Origin: Candidatus Zixiibacteriota bacterium | GTDB lineage: Bacteria > Zixibacteria > MSB-5A5 > GN15 > FEB-12 | DNA length: 24,453 bases | Assembly (NCBI GenBank): GCA_041742355.1 | Contig: JBGSIV010000003.1 | Coordinates: forward strand, 1-24,453 | Reading direction: 5' to 3' | In this document: positions 419 through 18,169 of the stretch, piece by piece | How positions within the stretch are numbered: position 1 is the stretch's first letter | Layout of the letters: every line of letters starts with the position of its first letter | Made by a program: the position numbers and the translations under genes | The notes under the pieces: model-generated | The model's database searches: none | Told to the model about the DNA's origin: nothing | What the model saw: the letters and a program-made list of their open reading frames with translations, nothing else

Positions 419-1186
419 TTACGGAATCTCCCGCTCCGGCGGCCCATCATAGGTCGACGGTGGCGGGCCGAGCCTCCGCATCGGCTTCTCCCGCGTCATC
501 TCCTCGTACGCATGCGCCAGCAACCCCGGCACCCGCGAGATGATGAAGAACCCCTTCCCCAGCCGCCAGTCAAATCCCATATCCGAGATCACCGCCGCAA
601 TCGCCCCATCCACATTGATCGGCAGCGCCTTCCCCGTCTTCTCGTGCAGGGCCTGCTCGACCGCCTTGCACAGGTCGATATGCCGCCCCTTGTAGCCGTG
701 ACGTTCCGCGATCTCAAAGAGCTTCCCCGTCCTGGGGTCGACATTGTGCAGCCGATGTCCGAATCCCGGCATCCGCTTCTTGCTCGTCCCGAGCCAGTCG
801 ACCAGCTCGGCCGCCAGCGCCTCGACCGCTCCCGGCTTCTTCGCCCACTCCTGCAGGATCTTCGCCGACTGCTCGATCGCCCCGCCGTGTGTATCCCCGA
901 TCACCAGCACCCCGCCGGCGATCGCCGCATTGAGCGAGTTCCCCCCCGACACGACTGTCCGCGTCCCCAGCACCGACGGCGGCGACGCGCCGTGATCGAC
1001 GGAGGACACCAGGATGGCATTCATCAGCGCCGCCTCCGCCTTGGTCGGGAGTTCCCCTTTGAGAATCAGGTACACCGTCTCGGCGTACGACAGCTTCTCC
1101 ATGATATCCGTGATCCCATATCCCCGCACCCGTATTTTCCCCGGCCCGATATCCGTGATCGCCGTGTTCCAGGTCTCCTCAGCCAT
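419..1186 (-). CDS. Citryl-CoA lyase family protein (citrate synthase-like small protein)
   Basis: 255 aa with citrate-synthase-fold motifs WNTAIT, IRVRGY, VDHG..PPS, HGGA, PGFGHR, DPR, NVDG and SRVPGLLAH. Upstream RBS GGAGAGG on the minus strand. Confidence 0.88.
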   Translation of the reverse strand: MAEETWNTAITDIGPGKIRVRGYGITDIMEKLSYAETVYLILKGELPTKAEAALMNAILVSSVDHGASPPSVLGTRTVVSGGNSLNAAIAGGVLVIGDTHGGAIEQSAKILQEWAKKPGAVEALAAELVDWLGTSKKRMPGFGHRLHNVDPRTGKLFEIAERHGYKGRHIDLCKAVEQALHEKTGKALPINVDGAIAAVISDMGFDWRLGKGFFIISRVPGLLAHAYEEMTREKPMRRLGPPPSTYDGPPEREIP

Positions 1187-1474: not shown

Positions 1475-2323
1475 CTACAAACTATCCGCTTCACTTTCCG
1501 GGCTCACCACCTGGCGCGTCAGCCCCAGCCACTGCGTCTCAAGGCTATCCACCGGCACTCCGAAAACCCCCTGTACCGCCGTCTCAAACGGCTCCACCGA
1601 CGTATAGAGCATCCGGAGCGTCTCAATCCCCCGGGTGAAGACGACAAAGTCGACGAACGACGCAGCTTCAGCCGCCCGGTCCGGGTCGGTGTCGATGGTG
1701 AAGGCGGTGTCAATCCCGAGCTCCCGCAGTGGCACAAACTTGTCTGTCTGGATAAGCCCCACCGTCCACTCGTGGTAGTTTTTCCCCGAGAAATCGAGCA
1801 GCTTCATCACCCCGTGCTTGAGAAACTTGTGCTTCGGCTCCCCCGGCACCCAGCGCTGGAGCATGTATCCTGCGGCCAGCGGCCCGTATGAGCCCGGCAA
1901 CCAGAGGTGGATTACGCTGTCGACGTGCGGGTAGATCGTCCCGGTCACCGAATTCCCGTGTCCCACACCGGTATAGAAGTACACCGGCACCGGCGCGGCG
2001 TCCTGCGGCACCGGGATCCCGAAGAACTGGGCATCCCGCCGAAGCAGCGCTTCCAGGTTCTTGACCATGTCATAGACATAATCCGCCCGCGGATGATCCG
2101 GCGGGTAGTGCACCCGAATGTTGCGGAAGGTGTAGGTCGTCCAACCCTTATAGGGCTCTTTCGGCCGCTCCACGGTCATCGCCGTGTCCCGGCCCCCGAT
2201 CCGGACGCCCGCCTCGCCGGAGGGTTGCTCGGGCTTTTCGTCCTTGGAGCACGCGGCCGAAAAAACGACCGCGAAGGCCAACAAACTTACCAGCGCCCGG
2301 CCAAAGAAGTGCATAATTCTCAT
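1475..2323 (-). CDS. Lipoprotein with a peptidase MA (gluzincin)-like fold, metal ligands apparently lost
   Basis: Hydrophobic signal ending in FSAA-C lipobox. The C-terminal half (AEAASFVDFVV..RGIETLRMLY...FETAVQGVFGVPVDSLETQW) follows the peptidase-MA-like pattern, but there is no HExxH. Good promoter upstream. Confidence 0.7.
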   Translation of the reverse strand: MRIMHFFGRALVSLLAFAVVFSAACSKDEKPEQPSGEAGVRIGGRDTAMTVERPKEPYKGWTTYTFRNIRVHYPPDHPRADYVYDMVKNLEALLRRDAQFFGIPVPQDAAPVPVYFYTGVGHGNSVTGTIYPHVDSVIHLWLPGSYGPLAAGYMLQRWVPGEPKHKFLKHGVMKLLDFSGKNYHEWTVGLIQTDKFVPLRELGIDTAFTIDTDPDRAAEAASFVDFVVFTRGIETLRMLYTSVEPFETAVQGVFGVPVDSLETQWLGLTRQVVSPESEADSL

Positions 2324-2443: not shown

Positions 2444-2474
2444 TTGACTTGGCCGGGGTCAATGACGATATTTT
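2444..2474 (+). promoter_or_regulatory. Possible promoter/operator of the redox operon
   Basis: TTGACT at 2444-2449 with a weak -10 (GATATT at 17 nt or TATTTT at 19 nt). It overlaps the palindrome TTGAC-N9-GTCAA (2444-2462). Confidence 0.35.
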
Positions 2475-2584
2475 CCTAAAGATAGACACACATGGCGTTT
2501 TAAGGTCGATAAAGTGGGGATTTACCGGGCGCACCCCGCCGTCGGCCGGCCAGGAAAACCACCTGAAGGTACACCGCGGTGCTG

Positions 2585-3325
2585 ATGGCCAGTCCGACAC
2601 AGAAATTCCAGTCGCCGACGTTTGCCAAACGCATCCTCACTATTGTCGGCGGATACGGCAGCGGCAAATCCGAGGTATCGGTCAATCTGGCCCGCTACCT
2701 GGCCCGGACCTCCGGCCGCCCGGTTGCGATCGCCGACCTTGACATCGTCAACCCGTACTTCCGTTCCCGCGAAGCGACCGGCCGCCTCATCGCCCTCGGC
2801 ATCAAGCCGATCCATCCCACCGACAGCCACACCTTTGCCGACCTGCCGATCATCCTGCCCGGCGTCCGCGGCGCCCTGGAGCAGTTCGACGGCACCCTGA
2901 TTCTGGATGTCGGCGGCGACGATGTCGGCGCCCGCGTTCTGGGCTCGCTCCATGACGCTTTCCCGGCCGATGACCACGAACTCCTGCTCGTGCTCAACGC
3001 CAACCGGCCGTTCACCGCGAACGTGCCCGCCTGCAAATCGCTCATGGCCAAGATCGAGTCGGCCGCCGGACTCCGTTTCACCGGGATCATCTCCAACACC
3101 CACCTGCTGGAGCACACCACCCCGGAAACGGTGCTCGACGGCCTGCGCCTCGCCCGAGCGCTCTCAGGCGATACCGGCCTGCCGATCGTCTTTATCGCCG
3201 CTCTGGAAGAACAACTGTCGCATATAAGTAGTAAGGATATAGATGTCCCGGTGCTCACCCTGAGCCGCCTGCTCCTCAAACCCTGGGAACGCCCCAACGA
3301 CAGCCCCGGCTCAGTCGCACCGTAA
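2585..3325 (+). CDS. P-loop NTPase (MinD/ParA/CobQ-like) of the family found upstream of vor operons
   Basis: Walker A GGYGSGKSE and motifs DLDIVNPYFRSRE, DVGGDDVGARVLG and NANRPFT. ATG at 2585 chosen over GTG at 2579. Confidence 0.82.
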   Translation: MASPTQKFQSPTFAKRILTIVGGYGSGKSEVSVNLARYLARTSGRPVAIADLDIVNPYFRSREATGRLIALGIKPIHPTDSHTFADLPIILPGVRGALEQFDGTLILDVGGDDVGARVLGSLHDAFPADDHELLLVLNANRPFTANVPACKSLMAKIESAAGLRFTGIISNTHLLEHTTPETVLDGLRLARALSGDTGLPIVFIAALEEQLSHISSKDIDVPVLTLSRLLLKPWERPNDSPGSVAP

Positions 3326-3338
3326 AAGGATACCGTGT

Positions 3339-3572
3339 ATGCCAGGAATACGCATAGATAAGAACCACTGCAAAGGGTGCGCCCTGTGCGTGCATGCCTG
3401 CCCCCAGAAGATCATCTCGATGTCGGATGACATCACTGTCCGGGGGTACTTCTACGCACGCCTCCACGATCCCTCGCGCTGCATCGGCTGCCGGCTCTGC
3501 GCCATTACGTGCCCGGATGCCGCTATTGCCGTGCTCGCCCACGGAACCACCTTCGCACTCGTTGACTACTAA
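3339..3572 (+). CDS. 2x[4Fe-4S] ferredoxin, delta subunit of 2-oxoacid:ferredoxin oxidoreductase
   Basis: CKGCALCVHACP and CIGCRLCAITCP motifs, AAGGA RBS, directly upstream of the alpha subunit. Confidence 0.92.
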   Translation: MPGIRIDKNHCKGCALCVHACPQKIISMSDDITVRGYFYARLHDPSRCIGCRLCAITCPDAAIAVLAHGTTFALVDY

Positions 3573-3593
3573 GCGATCGGAGCAGGATACGTC

Positions 3594-4733
3594 ATGGCAA
3601 AGATACTGATGAAAGGTAACGAAGCGATCGCCGAGGCCGCGATCCGCGCCGGCGCCGAAGGCTACTTCTGCTACCCGATCACGCCGCAGTCGGAAGTGGC
3701 CGAGTACATGGCCAAGCGGATGCCCGAAGTGGGCGGCGTTTTCCTCCAGGGCGAAAGCGAAGTGGCCGTCGGCTACATGATTTTCGGCGCCGCCTCGACC
3801 GGCAAACGCGTCTTTACGACCTCGTCGTCGCCGGGCATCTCGCTCATGCAGGAGGCTATCTCCTACATGGCCGGCGCCCACCTCCCCGCCGTCATCGTCA
3901 ACATCATGCGCGGCGGCCCCGGCCTCGGCGGCATTCTCCCCGCCCAGTCCGACTACTTCCAGTCCGTCAAAGGCGGCGGCCACGGCGACTACCGCGTCCT
4001 CGTCCTCGCCCCTTCGTCGGTGCAGGAAGCGGTCGACCTCATGATGCTCGCTTTCCACCTCGCCGACAAGTACCGCGCCCCTGTCATGCTCATCGGCGAC
4101 GGCATGATCGGCCAGATGATGGAGCCGGTCGAATTCCCCGAGAAATACGAGGAAGAGCCTCTGCCCGACAAGACGGAATGGGCCGCCACCGGCTCCAAAG
4201 ACCGCAAGCCGCGGATTCTCAAATCCCTCTTCCTCGATCCCGAGAAGCTCGAGAAGAACTCCTGGGAGCTCGACGACATGTACAAGGTCTGGCGCCGCGA
4301 TGAAGTCCGCCACGAGCTTTACAAAGTCAACGACAAGAACCGGATCCTGATAGTCTCCTACGGCACGATGGCCCGCATCTGCCAGACCGTGATCGACGAA
4401 CTCGAAGCCGAGGGGATCTCGGTCGGCCTCCTGCGGCCTATCTCGCTGTACCCGTTCCCGACCGAGCAGATTCACGCCGAGGCGACCAAAAAGAACATCG
4501 AGCAGGTGCTCACGGTCGAGATGTCGACCGCCCAAATGCTCGAAGATGTGCAGCTCGCCATTCTTGGCAAGAAGCCGATCGACTTCTTCGGCCGCACCGG
4601 CGGCATCGTCCCGGCCCCCGAGGAAGTGCGGGCCAAGATCATGACCATGCTCGGCTGCTCCGAACCCAAAGCCGCGCCGGCTGCCGGCCGCACGGCCGCC
4701 GCCAAAAAAGCGACGGCCCGCAAGAAGAGGTGA
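3594..4733 (+). CDS. vorB: 2-oxoacid:ferredoxin oxidoreductase alpha subunit (VorB-type, 3-methyl-2-oxobutanoate dehydrogenase family)
   Basis: MKGNEAIAEAA, YPITPQSE, QGESEVA, TSSSPGISLMQE, RGGPGLG, QSDYFQSVKGGGHGDY and VEMS..QM motifs typical of VorB. Confidence 0.92.
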   Translation: MAKILMKGNEAIAEAAIRAGAEGYFCYPITPQSEVAEYMAKRMPEVGGVFLQGESEVAVGYMIFGAASTGKRVFTTSSSPGISLMQEAISYMAGAHLPAVIVNIMRGGPGLGGILPAQSDYFQSVKGGGHGDYRVLVLAPSSVQEAVDLMMLAFHLADKYRAPVMLIGDGMIGQMMEPVEFPEKYEEEPLPDKTEWAATGSKDRKPRILKSLFLDPEKLEKNSWELDDMYKVWRRDEVRHELYKVNDKNRILIVSYGTMARICQTVIDELEAEGISVGLLRPISLYPFPTEQIHAEATKKNIEQVLTVEMSTAQMLEDVQLAILGKKPIDFFGRTGGIVPAPEEVRAKIMTMLGCSEPKAAPAAGRTAAAKKATARKKR

Positions 4734-4740
4734 GGATCTC

Positions 4741-5508
4741 ATGGCTAATGCGATAACATCGATATTCGAACGCCCCGTTGCGCTCCAGGAGACCGTAACC
4801 CACTACTGCCCCGGCTGCACCCACGGCATCATCCACCGCCTCGTCGCCGAATCAATCGACGAACTGGGCGTGCGGGAACGCACGGTCGGCGTCGCTCCGG
4901 TCGGCTGTTCGGTCCTGGCCTACAACTACTTCAACTGCGACTTCCTCGAGGCCGCCCACGGCCGCGCCCCCGCGCTGGCCACCGGCTTCAAGCGCCTCCG
5001 CCCCGACATGATTGTCTTCACGTACCAGGGGGACGGCGACCTCGCATCAATCGGCATGGCTGAGATCATCCACGCCGCCAACCGGGGCGAGAAGTTCACG
5101 ACCATCTTTGTCAACAACGCCATTTACGGCATGACGGGCGGCCAGATGGCCCCGACCACTTTGCCGGGGCAGGTGAGCACCACGTCGCCGCACGGGCGCG
5201 ATGTGGCCACAGCCGGTTACCCGATCCGGGTATCCGAACTGCTGTCGACACTGGCGACCCCGCTCTATATCGAGCGCGTCGCTGTGCACACCCCGCGCCA
5301 CGTCATCCGGGCCAAACAGGCCATACGACGGGCCTTCGAGTACCAGGTCAAGGGCCTGTGCTTCTCCCTGGTCGAAGTCCTCTCCACCTGCCCCACCAAC
5401 TGGGGGAAAACGCCCGATGATTCCATCCACTGGCTGGAGGACAACATGGTGCCGTTCTACCCGCTCAAGCGGTTCCGCACGCCGGAGACAGCCGGGGAGG
5501 TGCGGTGA
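4741..5508 (+). CDS. 2-oxoacid:ferredoxin oxidoreductase beta subunit (TPP-binding)
   Basis: HYCPGCTHG, PVGCS, AAHGRA, TPP motif QGDGDLASIG...NNAIYGMTGGQ and STCPTNW. Confidence 0.93.
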   Translation: MANAITSIFERPVALQETVTHYCPGCTHGIIHRLVAESIDELGVRERTVGVAPVGCSVLAYNYFNCDFLEAAHGRAPALATGFKRLRPDMIVFTYQGDGDLASIGMAEIIHAANRGEKFTTIFVNNAIYGMTGGQMAPTTLPGQVSTTSPHGRDVATAGYPIRVSELLSTLATPLYIERVAVHTPRHVIRAKQAIRRAFEYQVKGLCFSLVEVLSTCPTNWGKTPDDSIHWLEDNMVPFYPLKRFRTPETAGEVR

Positions 5509-6071
5509 TGCACCAGTATGAAGTCATGTTCGCGGGCTTCGGCGGCCAGGGTATCATGACCGCCGGCCAGTTGCTCGCGTACACCGGCATCAAAGAGGGC
5601 AAACACGTCGCGTGGATCCCCTCCTACGGGCCCGAAATGCGCGGCGGCACCGCCTACTGCACTGTGGTCGTCTCCGATCTGCGTATCGGCAGTCCTATCG
5701 TGACTAACCCGCGGTGCGTGTGCGCCTTCAACCGCCCCTCATTCGACAAATTCGAACCGAAGATCAAACCGGGCGGCCTGCTGGTAGTGAACAGCTCCCT
5801 CATCGATGTCTCCAGCACCCGCTCCGATGTCTCTCAGCTGTATGTCCCCGCCAACGAAATGGCCATCATGGCCGGCTCCCCGAAATCGACCAACATTATC
5901 GTTCTCGGAGCTTTCGTCGGCGCCAGCGGCGTCGTATCAATCGAGACGCTCCGCAAGGTCGTCAAGGAGAAGCTTGCCTCGAAAGCCAGCCTCCTCGATA
6001 TCAACCTGCGCCTCCTCGACGAGGGCTACAAGCTGTCCCAGGGCATGATCCGCCAGAAGGATACCGTATGA
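5508..6071 (+). CDS. 2-oxoacid:ferredoxin oxidoreductase gamma subunit
   Basis: AGFGGQG, PSYGPEMRGGTA and N..LGA motifs. ATG overlaps the upstream TGA (TGATG) and follows a GGAGG RBS. Confidence 0.93.
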   Translation: MHQYEVMFAGFGGQGIMTAGQLLAYTGIKEGKHVAWIPSYGPEMRGGTAYCTVVVSDLRIGSPIVTNPRCVCAFNRPSFDKFEPKIKPGGLLVVNSSLIDVSSTRSDVSQLYVPANEMAIMAGSPKSTNIIVLGAFVGASGVVSIETLRKVVKEKLASKASLLDINLRLLDEGYKLSQGMIRQKDTV

Positions 6072-6541
6072 AACACGACCTCACGAAAATCCCCGAAATC
6101 ATCGGACGGTATCCTCAGGAGCCGGGGTCGCTGATCGCCGTGCTGCAGGATATCCAGAAGGAGTTCAACTTTCTCCCGTGCGAGGCGCTGACCGCGACGG
6201 CCGAGGCGCTCGATGTCCCGCTGTCTAAAGTCTTCTCCGTGTCGACTTTCTACAACGCCTTCTGCCTTTCCCCGCGCGGCGAGAAAATTATCCGCGTCTG
6301 CATGGGCACCACCTGCCACATCCGCGGCGCCAAACAGCTCCTCGAACAGCTCGAGACGCGCCTCAATATCAAGGCGGGGCAGACTACCAAGGACATGCAG
6401 TTCACGATTGAAGTCGTCAACTGTGTCGGCGCCTGCGCGCTGGCCCCGGTCGTGATCATCAACGAGGAATACCACGGCAACTGCAAGGTCTCCGACGCCA
6501 AACGCTTCACCCGCCGCAAACACGAGAAAGAGGAGGCCTGA
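6068..6541 (+). CDS. NuoE/HydC-like [2Fe-2S] subunit (BfuC-type)
   Basis: LIAVLQDIQ, VSTFY, C-x4-C (CMGTTC) and C-x3-C (CVGAC..AP). True start is ATG 6068, overlapping the gamma-subunit stop (ATGA); the ORF-track start at 5714 is an over-extension. Confidence 0.92.
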   Translation: MKHDLTKIPEIIGRYPQEPGSLIAVLQDIQKEFNFLPCEALTATAEALDVPLSKVFSVSTFYNAFCLSPRGEKIIRVCMGTTCHIRGAKQLLEQLETRLNIKAGQTTKDMQFTIEVVNCVGACALAPVVIINEEYHGNCKVSDAKRFTRRKHEKEEA

Positions 6542-6545
6542 CGCC

Positions 6546-8402
6546 ATGCGTATCGAGTCTCCCAAACAACTGGCCGCCCTGCGGAAAGATCTGCTCGCCA
6601 AAGACAAGCAGACCACCAAGAAGCTCATGGTCTGCTGCGGCCCCGGGTGTCTGGCGAACGGCGCCGGCAAACTCGTGACCGAGTTCCGCAACACCCTCAA
6701 GAAGAAACACATCAAGGGTATCAGTGTCGAAATCCTCAAGGAAACCGGCTGCCACGGTTTCTGCGAACAGGGCCCCCTCGTCGTCATCGAACCGGAAGGC
6801 ATTTTCTACACGCACGTGAAACCGGCCGATGTCGAGACCATCATCGAGGAATCCCTGCGCCACGACTACGTGATTGACGGTCTCCTCTACACCGATCACC
6901 GCACCGGCGAACGCAAACGGACCTACCACGACATCGACTTTTACTCGAAGCAGACGCGCATCGCCCTGCGGAACCTCGGCAAGATCGACCAGTACTCGAT
7001 CGACGATTACATCATGCACGGCGGCTACCAGTCGATGGCCAAGGTGCTCACCTCGATGACGCCCGATAGCGTCATATCCGAGGTCAAAACCTCCGGCCTC
7101 CGCGGACGCGGCGGCGCCGGTTTCCCCGCGGGCAAGAAGTGGGAATCGTGCGCCAAGGCCGATGACTGGCCGCACTATGTCGTCTGCAACGGCGACGAGG
7201 GCGATCCCGGCGCGTTCATGGATCGCTCCATCATGGAGGGCGACCCGCACTCGGTCATCGAAGGCATGATCATCTGCGCTTTCGCGGTCGGCGCCAGAAA
7301 CGGCTACATCTACGTGCGCGAGGAATATCCGCTCGCGGTCCAGAACCTCCAGCTCGCGATCAAGCAGGCCACCGACTACGGTCTCATCGGCGAGAAGATC
7401 CTCGGCACCGAATTCTCCTTCGAAATCAAGGTCAACCGAGGCGCCGGAGCGTTCGTCTGCGGCGAATCCTCGGCTTTAATGAAATCGATCGCCGGCGAGG
7501 TCGGCGAACCGCGCGCCAAGTATGTCCGCTCGGTGCTCAAGGGCCTCCACGACCACCCGACTGTGCTGAACAACGTCGAGTCGTATGCCAACATCCCGGT
7601 CATTATCGACAAGGGTGGCGAGTGGTTCGCCAAAATCGGCACTCCGAAGAGCACCGGCACCAAGGCCTTCTCGCTCGTCGGCAAAGTCCGCAACACCGGC
7701 CTGATCGAAGTCCCGATGGGCACGACACTGCGCGAGATCATCTACGATATCGGCGGCGGGATCCAGGACGATCGCCCCTTCAAAGCGGTCCAGACCGGCG
7801 GCCCCTCCGGCGGTTGCCTCCCTGATGACAAGCTCGACCTGCCGGTCGACTTCGACACGCTTACCGACGCGTACTCGATGATGGGCTCCGGCGGCATGAT
7901 CATCATGGACGACCGCACGTGTGTCGTCGATGTCGCCAAGTACTTCCTCAAGTTCCTCGTCGACGAATCCTGCGGCAAGTGCACGCCCTGCCGCGAGGGC
8001 CTCTACCAGTTGCACGCCCTGGCCCAGAAGATCTCCGACGGCCTCGGCACCGAGGATGACATCGTGAAGATGGAGAAGCTCTCCGACGTCATCATCATGG
8101 GTTCGCTCTGCGGCCTCGGCAAGTCCGGCCCCAACCCGTTCGTGAGCACCATCCGCTATTTCCGCGATGAGTACCTCGCGCACATCAAGGACCACAAGTG
8201 CCCCGCCGGCGTCTGCACCGCGCTCATCCGCTACGACATCATCCCCGAGAAGTGCGACGGCTGCATGGCCTGTATCTTCGCCTGCGCGGTCAACGCGATC
8301 ACCGGGCGCAAGGGGAAGGTCCACACCATCAATCAGGATATCTGTACCAAATGCGGCGCCTGTATGGCCGTCTGCCGTCGGCACGCCGTGGAGGTCTCAT
8401 AA
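6546..8402 (+). CDS. NuoF/HydB-like FMN/NAD(P)H-binding Fe-S subunit with electron-bifurcating-type architecture (BfuB-type)
   Basis: 618 aa. N-terminal thioredoxin-like 2Fe-2S domain (CCGPGC, GCHGFC), GLRGRGGAGFP, NGDEGDPGAFMDR, GGPSGG, ESCGKCTPCREG..LCGLG, HIKDHKCPAGVC, and C-terminal 2x[4Fe-4S] (CDGCMACIFAC, CTKCGACMAVC). Confidence 0.93.
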   Translation: MRIESPKQLAALRKDLLAKDKQTTKKLMVCCGPGCLANGAGKLVTEFRNTLKKKHIKGISVEILKETGCHGFCEQGPLVVIEPEGIFYTHVKPADVETIIEESLRHDYVIDGLLYTDHRTGERKRTYHDIDFYSKQTRIALRNLGKIDQYSIDDYIMHGGYQSMAKVLTSMTPDSVISEVKTSGLRGRGGAGFPAGKKWESCAKADDWPHYVVCNGDEGDPGAFMDRSIMEGDPHSVIEGMIICAFAVGARNGYIYVREEYPLAVQNLQLAIKQATDYGLIGEKILGTEFSFEIKVNRGAGAFVCGESSALMKSIAGEVGEPRAKYVRSVLKGLHDHPTVLNNVESYANIPVIIDKGGEWFAKIGTPKSTGTKAFSLVGKVRNTGLIEVPMGTTLREIIYDIGGGIQDDRPFKAVQTGGPSGGCLPDDKLDLPVDFDTLTDAYSMMGSGGMIIMDDRTCVVDVAKYFLKFLVDESCGKCTPCREGLYQLHALAQKISDGLGTEDDIVKMEKLSDVIIMGSLCGLGKSGPNPFVSTIRYFRDEYLAHIKDHKCPAGVCTALIRYDIIPEKCDGCMACIFACAVNAITGRKGKVHTINQDICTKCGACMAVCRRHAVEVS

Positions 8403-8404
8403 CC

Positions 8405-9190
8405 ATGGCCACAGTCAACATAACGATTAACGGGCGAGTCGTCCGGGCCGAGAAAGGGGAAATGCTCCTCGATGTCATCCGCCGCGAGGGCATCGAGATC
8501 CCCGCTACCTGCGCTCACAAGGCGGTCGAGGCCTTCGGCGCCTGCCGACTCTGCACGGTCGAGATTACCAAGGACGATTGGAAGGGGTGGAAGAACTACG
8601 TCACGAGCTGCCTCTACCCGGTCGAGGCGGGCCTGATTGTCTTCACCCACTCCCAGCCGGTGATCGATCTGCGCAAGACGCTGCTCGATCTCCAGCTTGC
8701 ACGTCATCCCAATACGCCGCTCATTCAGGAAATGGCCGCCCAGTACGGCGTCAATAAGACGTCATACGAAGAGCTTCCCGATGCCGACGACTGCATCCTG
8801 TGCGCGCTGTGCACCCGGGTGTGCGACACGATGGGCTTCGCCGCGATCTCGACTGTCGGCCGCGGCCATGGCAAGAAAGTCGCGCCGCCCCTGGATCAGC
8901 CGCCGCCGGCGTGTGTCGGCTGCCTCGCCTGTGCTCAGGTCTGCCCGACCAACTTCATCAAGTTCACGCAGGCCGGCGCTCATCGGGAGATCTGGGGCAA
9001 GGCGTTCGATATGATCACCTGCACCCGCTGCGGCAAAGCGGTCATCACGAAAGAATTCGCCGAGAACCTGTCCGCGAACCGCAATATCCCGCGCGAATAC
9101 TTCGACGTCTGCGATGATTGCCACCGCAAGGAGCTGGCCGGGACCATGGGCCGTATCGCCAACTGGAACCGCGAGGAGGTAACCCGATGA
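8405..9190 (+). CDS. Short NuoG/HydA N-terminal-like Fe-S subunit with no H-cluster or molybdopterin domain (BfuA-type)
   Basis: ATG at 8405, 261 aa. 2Fe-2S motif (IPATC..GACRLC..TSC), 2x[4Fe-4S] (CILCALCTRVC, CVGCLACAQVCP) and extra C-terminal CTRC...CDDC. No HxxxCxxC cluster. Confidence 0.88.
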   Translation: MATVNITINGRVVRAEKGEMLLDVIRREGIEIPATCAHKAVEAFGACRLCTVEITKDDWKGWKNYVTSCLYPVEAGLIVFTHSQPVIDLRKTLLDLQLARHPNTPLIQEMAAQYGVNKTSYEELPDADDCILCALCTRVCDTMGFAAISTVGRGHGKKVAPPLDQPPPACVGCLACAQVCPTNFIKFTQAGAHREIWGKAFDMITCTRCGKAVITKEFAENLSANRNIPREYFDVCDDCHRKELAGTMGRIANWNREEVTR

Positions 9191-9627
9191 ACTCCCGACT
9201 CGTTGTCAAACCGAACCTCTGCATCGGCTGCCGCACCTGCGAACTGGCCTGCTCGTTCACCCACACAGTCGACGGCAAACCCGGCCGCTCGCGGATCTTC
9301 ATGCTCGACGGCGGCTATGACAAGCTCTGGGTGACCGTCACCTGCCTCCAGTGCGATGACCCCGCGTGCGTGAAATCCTGCCTTGTCGACGCCCTGCGCC
9401 GCAACGAGGTCACCGGCGCGATCGAGCTCAACCAGGAGAAGTGCGTCAAGTGCATGGCCTGTGTCGCCGCCTGTCCGTTCGGCTGTGCGATCCTCGACTC
9501 CGGCCATAATCAGGTGGTCAAGTGCGATCTGTGCGGCGGCGATCCCGCCTGCGCCCGTTTCTGCCCGACCAAAGCGCTGGAGTACCAGCCTATCGCGCAG
9601 ACTCAGAAGGCGAAGAAGGTCGGCTGA
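9187..9627 (+). CDS. 4x[4Fe-4S] electron-transfer subunit (DmsB/CooF/HycB type; resembles AOR-associated small subunits)
   Basis: ATG 9187 overlaps the upstream stop (ATGA). Four Cys clusters: CIGCRTCELAC, CLQCDDPACVKSC, CVKCMACVAAC and CDLCGGDPACARFC. Confidence 0.9.
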   Translation: MNSRLVVKPNLCIGCRTCELACSFTHTVDGKPGRSRIFMLDGGYDKLWVTVTCLQCDDPACVKSCLVDALRRNEVTGAIELNQEKCVKCMACVAACPFGCAILDSGHNQVVKCDLCGGDPACARFCPTKALEYQPIAQTQKAKKVG

Positions 9628-9640
9628 CGGCACAGAGATG

Positions 9641-9727
9641 ATCGGGTCGCCCACAGTCGGGTCGCCCACAGCCGGGTCGCCCACAGTCGCGTCGCCCACT
9701 GTCGGGTCGCCCACAGCTTGCTGTGGG
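9641..9727 (+). repeat. Five tandem 15-bp units (GTCGGGTCGCCCACA consensus) ending in a hairpin
   Basis: Units at 9641, 9656, 9671, 9686 and 9701. The last runs into CCCACAGC-TT-GCTGTGGG (9710-9727). An inverted copy lies at 10011-10034. Confidence 0.9.
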
Positions 9728-9744: not shown

Positions 9745-9772
9745 GTAGGGCGGGAGTCCCCAGACTCCCGCC
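9745..9772 (+). repeat. GTAG-type REP palindrome
   Basis: GTAG tag followed by a perfect 10-bp stem GGCGGGAGTC-CCCA-GACTCCCGCC. Confidence 0.8.
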
Positions 9773-10010
9773 TCATTTATGTCCGACCTTCGCCTGACCT
9801 TACACTCTGTCTCTTTCATTACGGGGGGTCTGGACAATCTCCATCAATTCGCAGTCGAATTTGGACAATAATCACGTACGTATGGCGGTCCGGGGAGGAC
9901 CGCTGAAAGACGATGAGTGGGATGGGGTTAGCGATGGGTACCGGGCGTGACAAGAGATCGTTTGGAGCCGAATGTACGGTCATGGGATTGGCGCCAAAGG
10001 TCGGAAAGCG

Positions 10011-10182: not shown

Positions 10183-11286
10183 ATGCGAACGACCGTGTCC
10201 ATCTTGATCCTTATTCTCTCTTCGACCCTGGCCACCGCCGGTACACTCCACGTACCCGACCCCTATCCTACGCTCGCCGATGCCATCGCCGCCGCGAACT
10301 CCTGCGACACCATCCTCCTCGCCCCCGGCACCTACTCCGGTCCCGGCTTCCAGAACCTCGTTCTCGACAACCGCTGCCTCACAATCAGCTCTGCTTCCGG
10401 TCACGATTCGTCCACTCTGGACCTCGGCGGTGCTCCCTTCATTCTCGTCACTAACAGCACGACCCCAAGCGAAGAGACAATCACTCTCCGCGATCTCACC
10501 CTCTCCAACTCCAGCGTGGAATACGGCGCCGGTGCGAGCATCGACATCATCAACTGCCGCTTCATCGGATCCGCGGTGTACGACGCCCTCCCCTCTGGAA
10601 ATGGCCTCATCGACTCGTGCATCTTTCAGCAAAGCACCATCGCGCTTGAGGACTCTGTCCATCAGACTATTTCGAGTTCGCTATTTCTATCCGCCGGCTG
10701 GGCGGGCATCCATTGTCAGGATGCCTCGGGAGCGACCATCGTCGGCAACATCTTTGCCTATAATCATGACGGCATATACGCCTACATCACTCGGGGCTTT
10801 GTCGTTGAGCGAAACGTGTTCATCGGAAATCAGTCCGGAATTTCGGACGAACTCTGGACTGTCGATGTCGATTTGAACGACAACCTCTTTTGGGATAATG
10901 GGCAGAACTTCTCCTATTTCAGGCTTCCCCCCGACGCCACCGGCAACATCTATGATCAGGATCCCCGCTTCTGCAACCTCCCCGAGACTGCCCGCTCCGT
11001 GATGGCCGACTCCCCGCTCCTTCCCGAAATCAACGGCCGCGCCCTCATCGGCAATGTGACTCTCGCCTGCCGTTGCGGCGACATCGACAGCTCAGGCCAT
11101 CTCGACCCCAACATCGCCGACCTCACCTACCTTATTGGTTTCCTCTTCCGCGGTGGCCCGGCCCCGGCATCCCTCGCCTCCTCTGACCTGAACGGCTCGG
11201 GAGGCGGCGCCTCGTCAATCGACATTGCTGATGTCACCTACCTGGTCGCCTTCCTCTTCCGCGCCGGCCTTTCCCCCGTCTGCTGA
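10183..11286 (+). CDS. Secreted right-handed beta-helix (pectin lyase/NosD-like) protein with C-terminal dockerin-like domain
   Basis: Sec signal peptide, then TLHVPDPYPTLADAIAAA..DTILLAPGTYSG typical of beta-helix surface proteins, PbH1-like repeats (I..N.F..N..GI) and DPRF. Duplicated Ca-loop motif GDID...NIADLTYL..FLFRGG / DLNG...DIADVTYL..FLFRAG at about 11068-11283. Confidence 0.85.
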   Translation: MRTTVSILILILSSTLATAGTLHVPDPYPTLADAIAAANSCDTILLAPGTYSGPGFQNLVLDNRCLTISSASGHDSSTLDLGGAPFILVTNSTTPSEETITLRDLTLSNSSVEYGAGASIDIINCRFIGSAVYDALPSGNGLIDSCIFQQSTIALEDSVHQTISSSLFLSAGWAGIHCQDASGATIVGNIFAYNHDGIYAYITRGFVVERNVFIGNQSGISDELWTVDVDLNDNLFWDNGQNFSYFRLPPDATGNIYDQDPRFCNLPETARSVMADSPLLPEINGRALIGNVTLACRCGDIDSSGHLDPNIADLTYLIGFLFRGGPAPASLASSDLNGSGGGASSIDIADVTYLVAFLFRAGLSPVC

Positions 11287-11450: not shown

Positions 11451-11789
11451 ATGAAAATGACCGACCGCGAGCAGGACGGCGTGGTCATCCTTGAGCCTAA
11501 AGGAAAAATCATGGGCGGTCCCGACGCCAGCCTGCTCCACGACAAGCTCCACGACGTTATCGAACACGGTAAGCGCAAGGTCGTTATCGACCTCGCCCAG
11601 GTCGACTGGATGAATTCCACCGGACTGGGCATTCTCATCTCCAGCTACACCACCCTGCGCAACCACGGCGGGGAACTGAAGCTGGCGAATGTGACCGACA
11701 AGATTCAGTCGCTCTTGACCATAACCAAACTGGTGACCGTTTTCGACGCCCACGACAGCGTCGACGAGGCCATTAAGGCATTCAAGTAG
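11451..11789 (+). CDS. rsbV: STAS-domain anti-sigma factor antagonist (RsbV/SpoIIAA family)
   Basis: 112 aa. VVIDLAQVDWMNSTGLGIL contains the phosphoacceptor Ser; GGELKL and LLTITKL motifs. GGAGG RBS. Confidence 0.92.
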   Translation: MKMTDREQDGVVILEPKGKIMGGPDASLLHDKLHDVIEHGKRKVVIDLAQVDWMNSTGLGILISSYTTLRNHGGELKLANVTDKIQSLLTITKLVTVFDAHDSVDEAIKAFK

Positions 11790-11827
11790 CCGGGAGTACC
11801 GCCGTCCAGCGCGTATGCGAATTCACG

Positions 11828-11864
11828 GCAGGCAGGCCTGATCCCGGTCCTGCCTGCTTTTTTT
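11828..11864 (+). terminator. Intrinsic terminator between rsbV and rsbW
   Basis: 9-bp stem GCAGGCAGG (11828-11836) / CCTGCCTGC (11849-11857) followed by T7 (11858-11864). Confidence 0.8.
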
Positions 11865-11879
11865 GGAGACACTACCGCC

Positions 11880-12302
11880 ATGAAACGACCTGTCATCGTG
11901 GGGAACCGGATCACCGTCCCCTCCAGCCACGACTTCCTGCCGACCGTCGATGAATTCGTCGAAGGTATCCTCCGCGGATGGGGTACCGACGAGTCTGTCA
12001 TCGCCGACATCGCCATTTCCGTCTCGGAACTGGTGAACAACGCCATCGTGCACGGCAGCAAGATGAACGCCGAAAAGGAAATTTCGGTCGAAATCGCCCA
12101 GACCAACGGCAAAGCCCGCATTACCGTGTGCGACCCCGGCACCGGTTTCGACCCCGCGCGGATCGCCAACCCGCTCGACGACGAAAACCTCCTGAAGGAA
12201 GTCGGACGCGGCATCTTCATCGTCCGCTCCCTCATGGATTCCGTCGACATCGAGGTCAGCGTCGGCGGCACCGCCATCACGATCACCAAGACCATCAACT
12301 GA
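11880..12302 (+). CDS. rsbW: Anti-sigma factor / Ser kinase (RsbW/SpoIIAB family, HATPase_c_2)
   Basis: ISVSELVNNAIVHG (N box), DPGTGFD (G1) and GRGIFIVRSLMD (G2). Confidence 0.92.
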   Translation: MKRPVIVGNRITVPSSHDFLPTVDEFVEGILRGWGTDESVIADIAISVSELVNNAIVHGSKMNAEKEISVEIAQTNGKARITVCDPGTGFDPARIANPLDDENLLKEVGRGIFIVRSLMDSVDIEVSVGGTAITITKTIN

Positions 12303-12331
12303 TCGCCACCTGAGCACTCCCGGTGAGGGGC

Positions 12332-15170: not shown

Positions 15171-15173
15171 CCC

Positions 15174-18142: not shown

Positions 18143-18169
18143 TTATGCGGCGAGAAAACGGAGGAATGT

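What the first reader, a model, noticed from the sequence alone, without database searches (positions are those of the whole stretch)
2585..9627. Vor-type oxoacid oxidoreductase translationally coupled to a catalytically 'headless' HydABC/Bfu module: candidate new electron-bifurcating complex
Seen in sequence: nine genes with gaps of at most 21 nt. The gamma-subunit stop overlaps the HydC-like start (ATGA at 6068-6071), so both halves form one operon. The B subunit carries the features associated with bifurcating HydB/BfuB: GDPGAFM, GGPSG, an N-terminal 2Fe-2S domain, the H..C..C segment and C-terminal 2x[4Fe-4S]. The A subunit has no H-cluster or pterin domain, and no catalytic partner follows the 4x[4Fe-4S] subunit. 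Established knowledge: BfuABC cores couple NAD(P)H and ferredoxin to a third reaction supplied by an attached enzyme (FeFe or NiFe hydrogenase, FDH, tungsten AOR; POR-linked members have been predicted from genomes). Inference: here the third reaction is oxidative decarboxylation of a branched-chain or other 2-oxoacid. Electrons would pass via the delta and small subunits and be split between NAD(P)+ and ferredoxin, or run in reverse for reductive carboxylation.
Basis: partly seen in the sequence, partly recalled or inferred. Interest (0 to 1): 0.8.

Follow-up and report, generated by a model that had tools for sequence, protein, structure and literature searches.

The report
Oxoacid oxidoreductase wired to bifurcating module
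Nine tightly packed genes most likely build one enzyme in which a branched-chain-type 2-oxoacid oxidoreductase hands electrons through an iron-sulfur adaptor to a flavin module that splits them between NAD and ferredoxin, an untested variant of an enzyme kind predicted in 2022.

Summary
In detail: nine + strand genes (2579-9627) with gaps of 21 nt or less and three ATGA/GTGA overlaps encode a P-loop NTPase, a four-subunit 2-oxoacid:ferredoxin oxidoreductase (delta, alpha, beta, gamma), BfuC, BfuB, a 261-aa headless BfuA and a 4x[4Fe-4S] subunit. BfuB carries every sequence mark that Schut et al. 2022 use to tell bifurcating Bfu enzymes from NuoF-type relatives. Among the 80 closest relatives of the alpha subunit, 50 of 70 judgeable loci carry the same Bfu module, in at least eight phyla, and none carries an AOR, FDH, CODH or hydrogenase. 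The class (Por-Bfu) was predicted in 2022 and has never been purified. This version differs in four ways. Its OFOR is a different type, which sits in leucine-dehydrogenase/ptb/buk operons in Bacillota. It has a WorS/PadI-like adaptor. Its BfuA is WorA-like, with the C-terminal helix that Por-Bfu lacks. It also has an OFOR-linked NTPase. The delta subunit bears a C-terminal tail in 48 of 49 Bfu-linked loci and 0 of 20 stand-alone loci. This scan has already reported the same nine-gene variant on other genomes (e1-6996706, e1-4951453). Bifurcation, complex formation and substrate remain untested. Verdict: real, a new variant of a known predicted kind.

The parts
2444..2472 (+). Promoter-like site (TTGACT-17-GATATT) upstream of the first gene
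   Evidence: Consensus scan, 9 of 12 matches. This is a pattern match only.
2579..3325 (+). SIMIBI-class P-loop NTPase (248 aa; alternative start ATG 2585). It is an OFOR-associated accessory gene of unknown function.
   Evidence: Pfam matches to CbiA and ParA are weak and below the curated cut-offs, and no NCBIfam family matches. The AF2 model has pLDDT 85, and the best Foldseek matches are SRP-type GTPases at TM about 0.5. The gene lies upstream of the OFOR in 72 of 76 judgeable loci, including 17 of the 20 loci without Bfu. The protein has only one Cys.
3339..3572 (+). OFOR delta subunit, 2x[4Fe-4S], 77 aa, with a C-terminal tail ...HGTTFALVDY
   Evidence: Fer4 families and PorD_KorD/OGOR_delta models match. 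The tail motif is present in 48 of 49 Bfu-linked and 0 of 20 stand-alone delta subunits.
3594..4733 (+). OFOR alpha subunit, 379 aa
   Evidence: POR_N and PFOR_II match. NCBIfam PRK07119 'VorB' scores 519 bits against a cut-off of 399. The nearest solved chains are 1YD7, 8YS5 and 6N2N.
4741..5508 (+). OFOR beta subunit (TPP-binding, one [4Fe-4S]), 255 aa
   Evidence: TPP_enzyme_C matches. C23, C26, C56 and C217 and the GDG motif are invariant in 56 sequences.
5505..6071 (+). OFOR gamma subunit, 188 aa. Its start overlaps the beta stop (GTGA).
   Evidence: PF01558 POR matches at 2e-39. The junction was read.
6068..6541 (+). BfuC (NuoE/HydC-like [2Fe-2S]), 157 aa. Its start overlaps the gamma stop (ATGA).
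   Evidence: PF01257 matches at 1e-46. The junction was read.
6546..8402 (+). BfuB (NuoF/HydB-like: FMN, NAD(H), N-terminal [2Fe-2S], C-terminal 2x[4Fe-4S]), 618 aa
   Evidence: Pfam domains are listed. The best solved relatives are 7T2R_B, 8A6T_B and 9MQX_B at E about 1e-215 to 1e-219. The Bfu-specific motifs are present.
8405..9190 (+). Headless WorA-like BfuA: [2Fe-2S], two [4Fe-4S] motifs, a CxxC...CxxC zinc finger and a C-terminal helix, 261 aa
   Evidence: phmmer against 9MQX_A gives 4.7e-46 over residues 4-246. The AF2 model has pLDDT 92.5 with a helix at 237-258. Foldseek against 9MQX_A gives TM 0.84/0.88 and rmsd 2.2 A.
9187..9627 (+). Small 4x[4Fe-4S] adaptor (WorS/AorA/PadI-N-terminal type), 146 aa. 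Its start overlaps the BfuA stop (ATGA).
   Evidence: The best NCBIfam match is PadI positions 7-140 of 443, at 2.6e-29. The best solved matches are 8C0Z_C at 1.8e-30 and 9MQX_E at 2.7e-29. All 16 Cys are invariant in 45 sequences.
9748..9773 (+). Terminator-like hairpin (11 pairs, 8 of them G-C) that ends the operon
   Evidence: Consensus scan. This is a pattern match only.

Best explanation
The operon encodes one soluble multi-subunit enzyme made of three modules.

(1) The first module is a four-subunit TPP-dependent 2-oxoacid:ferredoxin oxidoreductase of the PRK07119 'VorB' type. Its most likely substrates are the 2-oxoacids derived from valine, leucine and isoleucine, possibly with a broader range.

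(2) The second module is a WorS/PadI-type 4x[4Fe-4S] adaptor.

(3) The third module is a BfuABC core.

The inferred electron path is TPP, then the beta [4Fe-4S], then the two delta clusters, then the four adaptor clusters, then the two [4Fe-4S] and the [2Fe-2S] of BfuA, and finally the BfuBC flavin/cluster site. At that site NAD+ and ferredoxin are reduced together. By analogy with Wor-Bfu the reaction would be: 2 oxoacid + 2 CoA + NAD+ + 2 Fdox gives 2 acyl-CoA + 2 CO2 + NADH + 2 Fdred. The reaction would be reversible.

BfuA would hold the adaptor with its zinc-finger-buttressed C-terminal helix, as WorA holds WorS. The delta subunit's linkage-specific C-terminal tail is a candidate dock on the OFOR side.

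The ninth gene, a SIMIBI NTPase, belongs to the OFOR and not to the electron path. It is probably an assembly or maturation factor.

What is shown: the gene content, domains, motifs, synteny and co-variation. What is inferred: the complex, the electron path, the coupling and the substrate.
For: Operon structure. Gaps are 21 nt or less, there are three 4-nt overlaps, and one promoter-like site and one terminator-like site flank the nine genes.

Synteny. BfuCBA follows the OFOR in 50 of 70 judgeable relatives from at least eight phyla, always in the same order.

No rival catalytic partner. None was found in those loci or in this genome, which is 93.8% complete.

BfuB marks. The window's BfuB has DEGDPGAFMDR, GAGAFVCGE, the Cys3His ligand pattern of cluster B2, the N-terminal 2Fe-2S domain and the C-terminal 2x[4Fe-4S] domain. 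These match the criteria in Supplementary Figs 9-10 of Schut 2022.

BfuA. It matches WorA across its whole length, including the zinc finger and the C-terminal helix. WorA uses that helix to bind WorS (PMC12318220, passages read). All 7 Por-type BfuA end at the zinc motif, and those loci have no adaptor gene.

Adaptor. It is 45% identical to the N-terminal domain of PadI-like proteins, where that domain is fused to an OFOR beta subunit. Four of the 8 longer homologues found are fusions of this kind.

Delta tail. It is present in 48 of 49 linked loci and 0 of 20 unlinked loci.

Substrate. This genome has a separate single-chain PFOR, a KorDABG cluster next to sucCD-like genes, and an IOR. The Bacillota homologues L146, L151 and L158 (57-58% alpha identity) sit behind Leu/Val-type dehydrogenase, phosphotransbutyrylase and butyrate-kinase genes. 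This genome has a buk gene and two ptb genes on contig C283.

Physiological need. No Rnf/Nqr gene was found, so a direct route from these electrons to NAD would be useful.
Against: No OFOR-Bfu enzyme has ever been purified or assayed. Only 2 papers in the held library name Por-Bfu, and both treat it as a prediction.

Twenty of the 70 judgeable relatives have the same OFOR type without Bfu. The OFOR can therefore work with free ferredoxin, and co-transcription alone does not prove a complex.

The delta-tail and linkage correlation rests on only 4 changes of linkage on the alpha tree. That gives 2 independent pairs on well-supported branches, with a sign test p of 0.5.

The E0' of 2-oxoacid oxidation is about -500 mV (value for pyruvate in Table 1 of Schut 2022). 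That is low enough to reduce both acceptors without bifurcation.

The nearest solved alpha subunits are a P. furiosus 2-ketoacid enzyme and two chains annotated as 2-oxoglutarate enzymes, not a proven VOR. The substrate is therefore inferred only from gene context and from exclusion of the other OFORs.
Confidence: 0.52

Rival explanations
1. One complex, but not bifurcating. All electrons from the OFOR go through the adaptor and the Bfu module to NAD+. This would be an NAD-dependent 2-oxoacid oxidoreductase in the manner of the NADH-dependent phenylglyoxylate dehydrogenase (PadEFGHI) or the NAD-linked AorABC.
For: The adaptor's best database match is the N-terminal domain of PadI, a subunit of an enzyme that NCBIfam names 'NADH-dependent'. 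AorA, the adaptor of an NAD-reducing enzyme, is its best solved relative. The 2-oxoacid couple is low enough to reduce NAD+ directly. This genome has two NuoEFG-containing complex I gene sets that could use the NADH.
Against: The window's BfuB keeps every feature that Schut 2022 list as absent from non-bifurcating relatives: the motifs, the Cys3His B2 ligands, and the N- and C-terminal cluster domains. Pad and Aor use a different FAD subunit, not BfuBC (the Pad subunit make-up is recalled). In Wor-Bfu, the nearest characterised relative, neither acceptor is reduced alone (Schut 2022, passage read).
Confidence: 0.2
2. Two enzymes that are only co-transcribed. An ordinary VOR reduces free ferredoxin. 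BfuABC plus the adaptor is a separate ferredoxin/NAD(H) enzyme, which either recycles that ferredoxin or serves an unknown third partner.
For: The same ATPase-VorDABG cluster stands alone in 20 of 70 judgeable relatives. On the alpha tree the stand-alone Bacillota loci lie outside the clade that holds all Bfu-linked loci, so the Bfu module looks like an add-on. The organism lacks Rnf, so a soluble Fd:NAD enzyme would fill a gap.
Against: The order and tight spacing are fixed in 50 loci, with gamma/BfuC overlaps. The delta tail is specific to linked loci, 48 of 49 against 0 of 20. In solved relatives, adaptors of this family attach a catalytic subunit to BfuA, and here the OFOR is the only candidate. 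In PadI-like proteins an adaptor-like domain is fused to an OFOR beta subunit.
Confidence: 0.15
3. The same complex, but used mainly in reverse. NADH and reduced ferredoxin together drive reductive carboxylation of branched-chain acyl-CoA to 2-oxoacids for amino-acid synthesis.
For: Schut 2022 propose the synthetic direction for Por-Bfu. Liu et al. 2012 (PMC3362086, passages read) report that Ignavibacterium album lacks genes for branched-chain precursors and suggest that its VOR carboxylates simpler substrates. In Desulfobacula L136 the stand-alone cluster lies between an HMGL-like synthase gene and an ACT-domain gene, and in L137 it lies next to an aminotransferase gene.
Against: The Bacillota relatives sit in catabolic Leu-dehydrogenase/ptb/buk operons. 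This genome has buk and ptb genes for making ATP from acyl-CoA. I did not check whether this genome has the ilv/leu pathway.
Confidence: 0.13

Closest known systems
Por-Bfu (Por-BfuABCDEFG), a type 2 Bfu enzyme predicted from genomes by Schut et al. 2022 (PMC9304861). Example: Dehalococcoides mccartyi 195. It has not been characterised.
   Same: A four-subunit OFOR is encoded directly beside BfuC, BfuB and a headless BfuA, and the same coupled reduction of NAD+ and ferredoxin is proposed. The BfuB sequences of the two kinds are neighbours in the tree: the group holding Vor-linked and Por-linked sequences, plus a nested clade with other neighbours, has SH-aLRT 88.
   Different: The OFOR is of another type. 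The window's subunits are 23-31% identical to the Por-linked ones, and the gene order is D-A-B-G rather than G-D-A-B. Por-Bfu has 7 subunits and no WorS homologue, and its BfuA lacks the C-terminal helix. That was confirmed here in 7 of 7 Por-type loci. The window has an adaptor, a helix-bearing WorA-like BfuA and an NTPase gene. The phyla also differ: Schut list Chloroflexi and Proteobacteria (12 sequences).
Wor-Bfu (WorABCSL) of Acetomicrobium mobile, biochemically bifurcating, cryo-EM structure 9MQX (PMC12318220)
   Same: BfuA matches WorA across its full length (E 4.7e-46, TM 0.84/0.88), including the zinc finger and C-terminal helix. The adaptor matches WorS (2.7e-29). BfuB matches WorB (9e-215).
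   Different: The catalytic partner is a TPP-dependent OFOR, not a tungstopterin WorL. No AFOR gene was found in the locus or in the genome. The adaptor has only 7 residues beyond the stretch that aligns with WorS, where WorS has 15. Those 15 include the C-terminal helix that WorS uses to polymerise, according to the passages read. A three-copy nanowire is therefore doubtful here.
NADH-dependent phenylglyoxylate dehydrogenase PadEFGHI (NCBIfam NF045762/64/66; the biochemistry in Azoarcus evansii is recalled and was not read here)
   Same: It is an OFOR-type enzyme that delivers electrons to NAD+. Its beta subunit, PadI, carries at its N-terminus a 4x[4Fe-4S] domain homologous to the window's adaptor (E 2.6e-29; 45% identity to the PadI-like protein P0002).
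   Different: Here the adaptor is a separate protein and the NAD module is BfuABC. The window's alpha, beta and gamma score far below the Pad model cut-offs: 71 against 700, 33 against 700, and 68 against 300.
Stand-alone NTPase-VorDABG clusters of Bacillota, Desulfobacterales, WOR-3 and others (unnamed; seen in loci L125-L158)
   Same: They have the same five genes in the same order, with alpha 55-63% identical and beta 63-72% identical.
   Different: They have no BfuCBA and no adaptor. Their delta subunit lacks the C-terminal tail, in 0 of 20. In Bacillota they are embedded in Leu/Val-dehydrogenase, ptb and buk operons.

Membership tests
BfuABC family (Schut et al. 2022) | BfuB has a NuoF-like core with FMN and NAD(H) sites and the N3-type [4Fe-4S] | tested here: met
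   PF01512 matches at 1.5e-45 and PF10589 at 7e-29. The ESCGKCTPC motif is present.
BfuABC family (Schut et al. 2022) | Bfu-type motifs DEGDPGAFMDR (NADH site) and GAGAFVCGE (FMN site) are present, rather than the DEGEPG..KDR and GAGAYxCGE forms of non-bifurcating relatives | tested here: met
   The window reads VVCNGDEGDPGAFMDRS and NRGAGAFVCGESSALM, compared with Supplementary Fig. 10. By regular expression the two motifs are found in 48 of 50 and 50 of 50 Vor-linked BfuB.
BfuABC family (Schut et al. 2022) | Cys3His ligands of cluster B2 (C438, H525, C531 and C536 in A. mobile numbering) | tested here: met
   The window reads DRTCVVD ... EYLAHIKDHKCPAGVC, which matches the pattern in Supplementary Fig. 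9. This was judged from the motif pattern, not from a structure.
BfuABC family (Schut et al. 2022) | BfuB has an N-terminal [2Fe-2S] domain and a C-terminal 2x[4Fe-4S] domain. BfuC has a [2Fe-2S] cluster. BfuA has 2Fe-2S and 4Fe-4S domains. | tested here: met
   PF01257 matches BfuB at residues 24-102 and Fer4 families match at 565-615. BfuC matches PF01257 at 1e-46. BfuA matches Fer2_4 and Fer4_21.
BfuABC family (Schut et al. 2022) | Tightly coupled three-substrate reaction in which neither NAD nor Fd is turned over alone | not testable with these tools
   This needs an anaerobic enzyme assay.
Por-Bfu (predicted class) | Four OFOR subunits are encoded contiguously with BfuABC | tested here: met
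   The arrangement is conserved in 50 of 70 judgeable loci.
Por-Bfu (predicted class) | The OFOR is of the PorGDAB (pyruvate) type, as in the Dehalococcoides and deltaproteobacterial examples | tested here: not met
   The window's subunits are 23-31% identical to those of the 8 Por-linked loci, and the gene order differs. Alpha passes PRK07119 'VorB' and scores far below the PorA models.
Por-Bfu (predicted class) | Seven subunits, no WorS homologue, and a BfuA with a zinc finger but without the C-terminal helix | tested here: not met
   An adaptor is present. BfuA has a 22-residue tail that is predicted to be helical. All 7 Por-type BfuA end at the zinc motif.
Wor-Bfu (WorABCSL) | WorA-type BfuA and a WorS-type 4x[4Fe-4S] subunit | tested here: met
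Wor-Bfu (WorABCSL) | Tungstopterin WorL (AFOR) catalytic subunit | tested here: not met
   tblastn found no AFOR match in the window's genome or in the Vor-linked loci.
Four-subunit 2-oxoacid:ferredoxin oxidoreductase | Alpha (POR_N, PFOR_II), beta (TPP-binding with four Cys for one [4Fe-4S]), gamma (POR) and delta (2x[4Fe-4S]) | tested here: met
2-ketoisovalerate (branched-chain) ferredoxin oxidoreductase, VOR | Preference for branched-chain 2-oxoacids | not testable with these tools
   The support is indirect. The NCBIfam 'VorB' model is passed. Bacillota relatives lie in Leu-dehydrogenase/ptb/buk operons. PFOR, KOR and IOR are encoded elsewhere in this genome. The archaeal VorA model PRK08366 scores only 71 bits against a cut-off of 646.
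NADH-dependent phenylglyoxylate dehydrogenase (PadEFGHI) | A PadI-type beta subunit with a fused N-terminal polyferredoxin domain, and Pad-type alpha and gamma subunits | tested here: not met
   The domain is present here as a separate protein. The window's alpha, beta and gamma score 71, 33 and 68 bits against cut-offs of 700, 700 and 300.

The most novel reading that the evidence does not exclude
This is a widespread three-module machine that is not described in the papers searched. An NTPase-assisted branched-chain 2-oxoacid oxidoreductase is plugged through a WorS/PadI-type adaptor and a delta-subunit C-terminal tail into a BfuABC core. It performs obligately coupled reduction of NAD+ and ferredoxin. 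That would be the first TPP-dependent 'third reaction' shown in flavin-based electron bifurcation. In organisms without Rnf it would be a main link between the ferredoxin and NAD pools. The NTPase would be the first dedicated accessory factor known for an OFOR.
Probability: 0.35. Interest if true: 0.7.

Novelty: new variant of a known kind. Interest (0 to 1): 0.55.

Why it matters
OFORs are central enzymes of anaerobic carbon and amino-acid metabolism, and they are normally thought to use free ferredoxin only. If this enzyme is one bifurcating particle, amino-acid-derived 2-oxoacids could be oxidised, or made, with a fixed split between NADH and reduced ferredoxin. That would change the energy and redox budgets inferred for Zixibacteria, Ignavibacteria, Calditrichota, Planctomycetota, Myxococcota and others that are known mostly from metagenomes.

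It would also make the open question raised by Schut et al. 2022 directly testable: why would a low-potential substrate need bifurcation at all? This architecture offers concrete handles for that test, namely the adaptor, the BfuA helix and the delta tail.

The OFOR-linked NTPase is a separate lead for OFOR assembly.

Tried and rejected
Complex model. Complex prediction with beta, delta and the adaptor, each given as an alignment, returned no answer (score 0.22 against a mark of 0.32, controls not run). It counts neither for nor against binding.

Expression. The look-up of sequencing runs listed no RNA holder. I laid no reads.

Trees. A tree with the mixture model did not finish, so I used LG+G4 quick trees. 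Support values are SH-aLRT only.

The NTPase. No Pfam or NCBIfam family reached its cut-off. Foldseek places it only in the SIMIBI class. The Atlas gives only uncharacterised CbiA-like clusters.

Reading as 2-oxoglutarate oxidoreductase. I considered this because of the D-A-B-G gene order and because the nearest solved structures include 2-oxoglutarate enzymes. I rejected it as the first choice because a separate KorDABG lies next to sucCD-like genes on contig C95 and because of the gene context of the Bacillota relatives.

Reading as a catalytic head encoded elsewhere. I rejected this because tblastn found no AFOR, CODH, XDH or FeFe-hydrogenase gene in this 93.8%-complete genome.

Nanowire of several OFORs. 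I judged this unlikely because the adaptor lacks the C-terminal extension of WorS.

Flawed measurements. The simple regular expression for the BfuA tail mis-measures proteins whose last zinc ligand pair is not CxxC, so I read the sequences themselves. My regular expression for the H..C..C segment was too strict for relatives, matching 34 of 50, and I do not use that count.

Earlier notes and literature. The search of earlier findings by place returned nothing. Literature searches found no description of this nine-gene variant. The library holds open-access papers and preprints only. The figures of Schut 2022, including Figs 3 and 7 and the clade trees, could not be seen. I therefore cannot exclude that one of their 12 Por sequences (clades 35 and 44) is of this type.

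Full report
WHAT IS THERE

The window (62% G+C) carries nine + strand genes between 2579 and 9627. The intergenic distances are 13, 21, 7, -4, -4, 4, 2 and -4 nt. The gamma stop overlaps the BfuC start as ATGA at 6068-6071. A promoter-like site lies at 2444-2472, and an 11-pair terminator-like hairpin lies at 9748-9773.

Pfam and NCBIfam identify the genes in this order:
- A P-loop NTPase, with only weak CbiA/ParA matches below the cut-offs.
- OFOR delta, with 2x[4Fe-4S].
- OFOR alpha, with POR_N and PFOR_II. NCBIfam PRK07119 'VorB' scores 519 bits against a cut-off of 399.
- OFOR beta, with TPP_enzyme_C.
- OFOR gamma, with POR.
- BfuC, NuoE-like.
- BfuB, NuoF-like, with an N-terminal thioredoxin-like 2Fe-2S domain and a C-terminal 2x[4Fe-4S] domain.
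- A 261-aa BfuA with Fer2_4 and two 4Fe-4S motifs only.
- A 146-aa protein with four 4Fe-4S motifs.

IS THE B SUBUNIT OF THE BIFURCATING KIND?

I read the supplement of Schut et al. 2022 (PMC9304861) as text and main-text passages. It gives sequence marks that separate Bfu enzymes from non-bifurcating relatives:
- DEGDPGAFMDR rather than DEGEPG..KDR.
- GAGAFVCGE rather than GAGAYxCGE.
- Three Cys and one His for cluster B2.

The window's BfuB has all of them: VVCNGDEGDPGAFMDRS, NRGAGAFVCGESSALM, and DRTCVVD...EYLAHIKDHKCPAGVC. Its best solved relatives are the B subunits of bifurcating enzymes: 7T2R at 3e-219, 8A6T at 4e-218 and 9MQX at 9e-215. Complex I NuoF scores about 1e-114.

IS THE LINKAGE CONSERVED?

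I searched one genome per species with BfuB and mapped the nine proteins onto the 80 loci returned.
- 16 loci are Vor-linked, and 10 of those show all nine genes. The others are cut by contig ends, except L062, which lacks matches to the NTPase and the adaptor.
- 8 loci are linked to a different OFOR, in the order PorG-D-A-B, with 23-31% identity to the window's subunits.
- About 20 are linked to an adaptor plus an AFOR gene (Wor-Bfu).
- The rest are linked to CODH (with or without ACS), a xanthine-dehydrogenase-like enzyme, FeFe hydrogenase, Fdh and others.

I then searched with the alpha subunit, which again returned 80 loci. Of these, 70 have enough sequence after gamma to judge. Fifty carry BfuC/BfuB there and 20 do not.
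- The linked loci are 14 Zixibacteria, 12 Ignavibacteriota, 7 Myxococcota, 4 Planctomycetota, 2 Calditrichota, 1 each of Acidobacteriota, Bacteroidota and Delongbacteria, and 8 unassigned.
- The unlinked loci are 7 Bacillota, 7 Thermodesulfobacteriota, 1 each of WOR-3, Myxococcota and Acidobacteriota, and 3 unassigned.

None of L081-L158 holds an AFOR, CODH, XDH, FeFe, Fdh, ACS, GltD-like, HdrA-like or DAO gene at E 1e-10. Of the 40 loci with the adaptor, 34 have at least 2 kb of sequence beyond it. In several of those loci the genes beyond it were scanned: STAS/anti-sigma kinase/SpoIIE genes, Lon, peptidases and a cytochrome c.

The window's own genome is 4.37 Mb in 310 contigs and 93.8% complete. 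tblastn found no AFOR, CODH, XDH or FeFe-hydrogenase gene in it.

PHYLOGENY

In an LG+G4 quick tree of 79 BfuB sequences, the 17 Vor-linked rows need 2 changes of label, and one origin is not excluded. A clade of 5 sequences with a fused BfuCB and a giant BfuA is nested among them. The 8 Por-linked rows form one clade (SH-aLRT 98). The group holding both has support 88. The next neighbours are the Wor-, Codh- and XDH-linked sequences. This corresponds to what Schut call clade 45, but I could not see their trees.

In the alpha tree, rooted on this genome's KorA, the Bacillota stand-alone loci are basal. A 99-supported clade of 80 rows holds all 57 Bfu-linked rows and 13 stand-alone rows.

WHAT KIND OF OFOR, AND WHICH SUBSTRATE?

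The genome has four OFOR alpha genes:
- A 1247-aa single-chain PFOR.
- A delta-alpha-beta-gamma set next to succinyl-CoA-synthetase-like genes on C95. It is presumably the 2-oxoglutarate enzyme and its alpha is 31% identical to the window's.
- A 595-aa gene that I read, from its length and a weak POR_N match, as an indolepyruvate-type (IOR) alpha.
- The one in the window.

The nearest solved alpha chains are a P. furiosus 2-ketoacid enzyme (1YD7, 1e-52) and two chains annotated as 2-oxoglutarate enzymes (8YS5, 6N2N). PORs are far more distant.

The best functional hint comes from relatives. In Bacillota loci L146, L151 and L158 (57-58% alpha identity), the NTPase-VorDABG cluster directly follows Glu/Leu/Phe/Val-dehydrogenase, phosphate butyryltransferase and butyrate-kinase-family genes. 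In L136 the cluster lies between an HMGL-like gene and an ACT-domain gene. In L137 an aminotransferase gene follows it.

The window's genome has a butyrate-kinase gene and two ptb genes on C283.

Branched-chain 2-oxoacids are therefore the most likely substrates. This is an inference.

THE ADAPTOR AND BfuA SET THIS APART FROM Por-Bfu

The small subunit's best family match is the N-terminal 4x[4Fe-4S] domain of PadI, the beta subunit of the NADH-dependent phenylglyoxylate dehydrogenase (positions 7-140 of 443, 2.6e-29). Its best solved relatives are AorA (8C0Z_C, 1.8e-30), WorS of Wor-Bfu (9MQX_E, 2.7e-29) and the WOR5 small subunit.

Among 8 longer homologues:
- Four are PadI-like fusions of this domain to an OFOR beta subunit. 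P0002 is 45% identical to the adaptor. P0005 passes the PadI model at 718 bits against a cut-off of 700.
- One is fused to an HdrA-like flavoprotein domain.

This is a Rosetta-stone link between this adaptor type and OFOR beta subunits.

BfuA aligns with WorA over residues 4-246 (4.7e-46), including CTRC...CDDC. Its AF2 model has pLDDT 92.5 with a helix at 237-258. The model superposes on 9MQX_A with TM 0.84/0.88 and rmsd 2.2 A.

The Wor-Bfu structure paper (PMC12318220, passages read) makes two relevant points. WorA's zinc-finger-buttressed C-terminal helix binds WorS. The A subunits of Por-Bfu and Mbh-Bfu have the zinc finger but lack the helix, and those enzymes lack a WorS homologue.

I confirmed this in the loci. 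All 7 complete Por-type BfuA end within 0-2 residues of the zinc motif (CPDHR, CQNCRK), and those loci have no adaptor. The window's BfuA has 22 further residues. The median is 22 in 52 Vor-type sequences and 17 in 17 Wor-type sequences.

The adaptor itself has only 7 residues beyond the stretch that aligns with WorS, where WorS has 15. Those 15 include the C-terminal helix that WorS uses to polymerise. A 1:1 attachment therefore seems more likely than a nanowire.

A MARK ON THE OFOR SIDE

The delta subunits of Bfu-linked loci end in a conserved tail...(H/N)G(T/L)x(F/Y)xL(F/Y)(D/E)Y. It is present in 48 of 49 linked loci. The exception, L113, has the same tail without the last Y. It is absent from all 20 stand-alone delta subunits, which stop soon after the second cluster motif.

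At matched alpha identity (55-66%), the median identities to the window's subunits compare as follows:

| Subunit | Linked loci | Stand-alone loci |
|---|---|---|
| delta | 52% | 44% |
| beta | 70% | 68% |
| gamma | 47% | 50% |

This fits delta being the docking face. The caveat is that the alpha tree needs only 4 changes of linkage. That leaves 2 independent pairs on well-supported branches and a sign test that cannot reach significance.

THE NINTH GENE

The NTPase lies upstream of the OFOR in 72 of 76 judgeable loci, including 17 of the 20 stand-alone ones. It therefore belongs to the OFOR module.

Its invariant motifs are GxYGSGK(T/S)E, DLDIVNPYFRSRE, LDVGGDD and NxxRPFT, over 68 sequences. 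It has a single Cys, so it is not a NifH-like cluster carrier. Its model (pLDDT 85) is nearest to SRP-type SIMIBI GTPases at TM about 0.5. An assembly or maturation role is a guess from what SIMIBI NTPases commonly do.

PHYSIOLOGY

No Rnf/Nqr subunit was found in the genome. Two NuoEFG-containing complex I gene sets and a NiFe-hydrogenase-linked Bfu-like cluster are present. A direct route from 2-oxoacid electrons to both NADH and ferredoxin would suit such an organism.

The reverse, synthetic direction is also possible. Schut 2022 propose it for Por-Bfu. Liu et al. 2012 suggest a carboxylating VOR in Ignavibacterium album, which lacks branched-chain precursor genes (PMC3362086, passages read).

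NOVELTY

The class is known as a prediction: Por-Bfu, 12 sequences, Chloroflexi and Proteobacteria, never purified. Only two papers in the held library use the name. Searches for the Vor-type arrangement found nothing.

This version fails two defining features of Por-Bfu, the OFOR type and the lack of a WorS homologue. It combines parts of three known systems: the Bfu core and WorA/WorS joint of Wor-Bfu, the PadI-type adaptor-OFOR pairing, and a VOR-type OFOR.

Earlier reports of this scan describe the same nine-gene variant on other genomes (e1-6996706, e1-4951453), as well as six-gene and fused Por-Bfu forms. My tests agree with them. They add four things: the assignment of the NTPase to the OFOR module, the catabolic context of the stand-alone relatives, the BfuA-helix and adaptor co-occurrence, and the delta tail.

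VERDICT

The feature is real and conserved. It is most likely one OFOR-adaptor-Bfu enzyme (confidence about 0.5 for the full mechanism). It is a new variant of a known predicted kind, of moderate interest (0.55). The decisive evidence has to come from biochemistry.

Noticed in passing
window 419-1186 (-) and 1475-2323 (-): A 255-aa citryl-CoA lyase (NCBIfam NF004869, 309 bits against a cut-off of 212) and a 282-aa protein with no family match lie divergently upstream of the operon. Three of the four Zixibacteria/Ignavibacteria-type loci scanned upstream (L085, L090, L100) have the same pair in the same place: a short citrate-synthase-like gene and an unmatched 270-305-aa gene. L116 has an acetyltransferase gene in place of the first. 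This may point to a citryl-CoA-based (reverse) TCA variant.
   Followed up: partly
window 9642-9716: Five tandem copies of a 15-nt unit (TCGGGTCGCCCACAG, 90% matches) lie between the stop of the adaptor gene and the terminator-like hairpin. Their role is unknown.
   Followed up: no
window 11451-14620 (+): A partner-switching set: STAS (11451-11789), an anti-sigma-kinase-like HATPase_c_2 protein (11880-12302) and a 765-aa SpoIIE phosphatase (12323-14620). HATPase_c_2 and SpoIIE genes lie directly after the operon in L090, L100 and L116, with a STAS gene in front in L100 and L116. L085 has a SpoIIE gene there. This set is a possible regulator of the operon. In the window a beta-helix protein gene (10183-11286) is inserted between the operon and this set.
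   Followed up: partly
own genome, contig C299 about 13000-23100: A second Bfu-like cluster. Its BfuC-like and BfuB-like genes (47% and 51% identical to the window's, all Bfu motifs present) lie next to CCG-domain (HdrB-like) genes, an MvhD-like gene, and a NiFe hydrogenase large subunit with its protease.
   Followed up: partly
own genome (whole): No Rnf/Nqr subunit (PF02508) was found in the 93.8%-complete assembly. Two complex I gene sets with NuoEFG are present (C220, C259).
   Followed up: partly
L003, L004, L005, L006 (BfuA C-terminus): In several Ignavibacteria the second Cys pair of the BfuA zinc finger is replaced (for example ...YFKLNDESHRKE...), while the C-terminal tail is kept.
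   Followed up: no
L154 10421-14630; L156 5750-9125: L154 has two successive BfuC-BfuB pairs after the OFOR. L156 (Vicinamibacterales) has a delta-beta fusion, the gene order D/B-G-A, and no Bfu module.
   Followed up: no
protein P0001 (444 aa): The closest longer homologue of the adaptor (51% identity) is fused to an HdrA-like FAD domain. This is another way of wiring this polyferredoxin to a flavoprotein.
   Followed up: no
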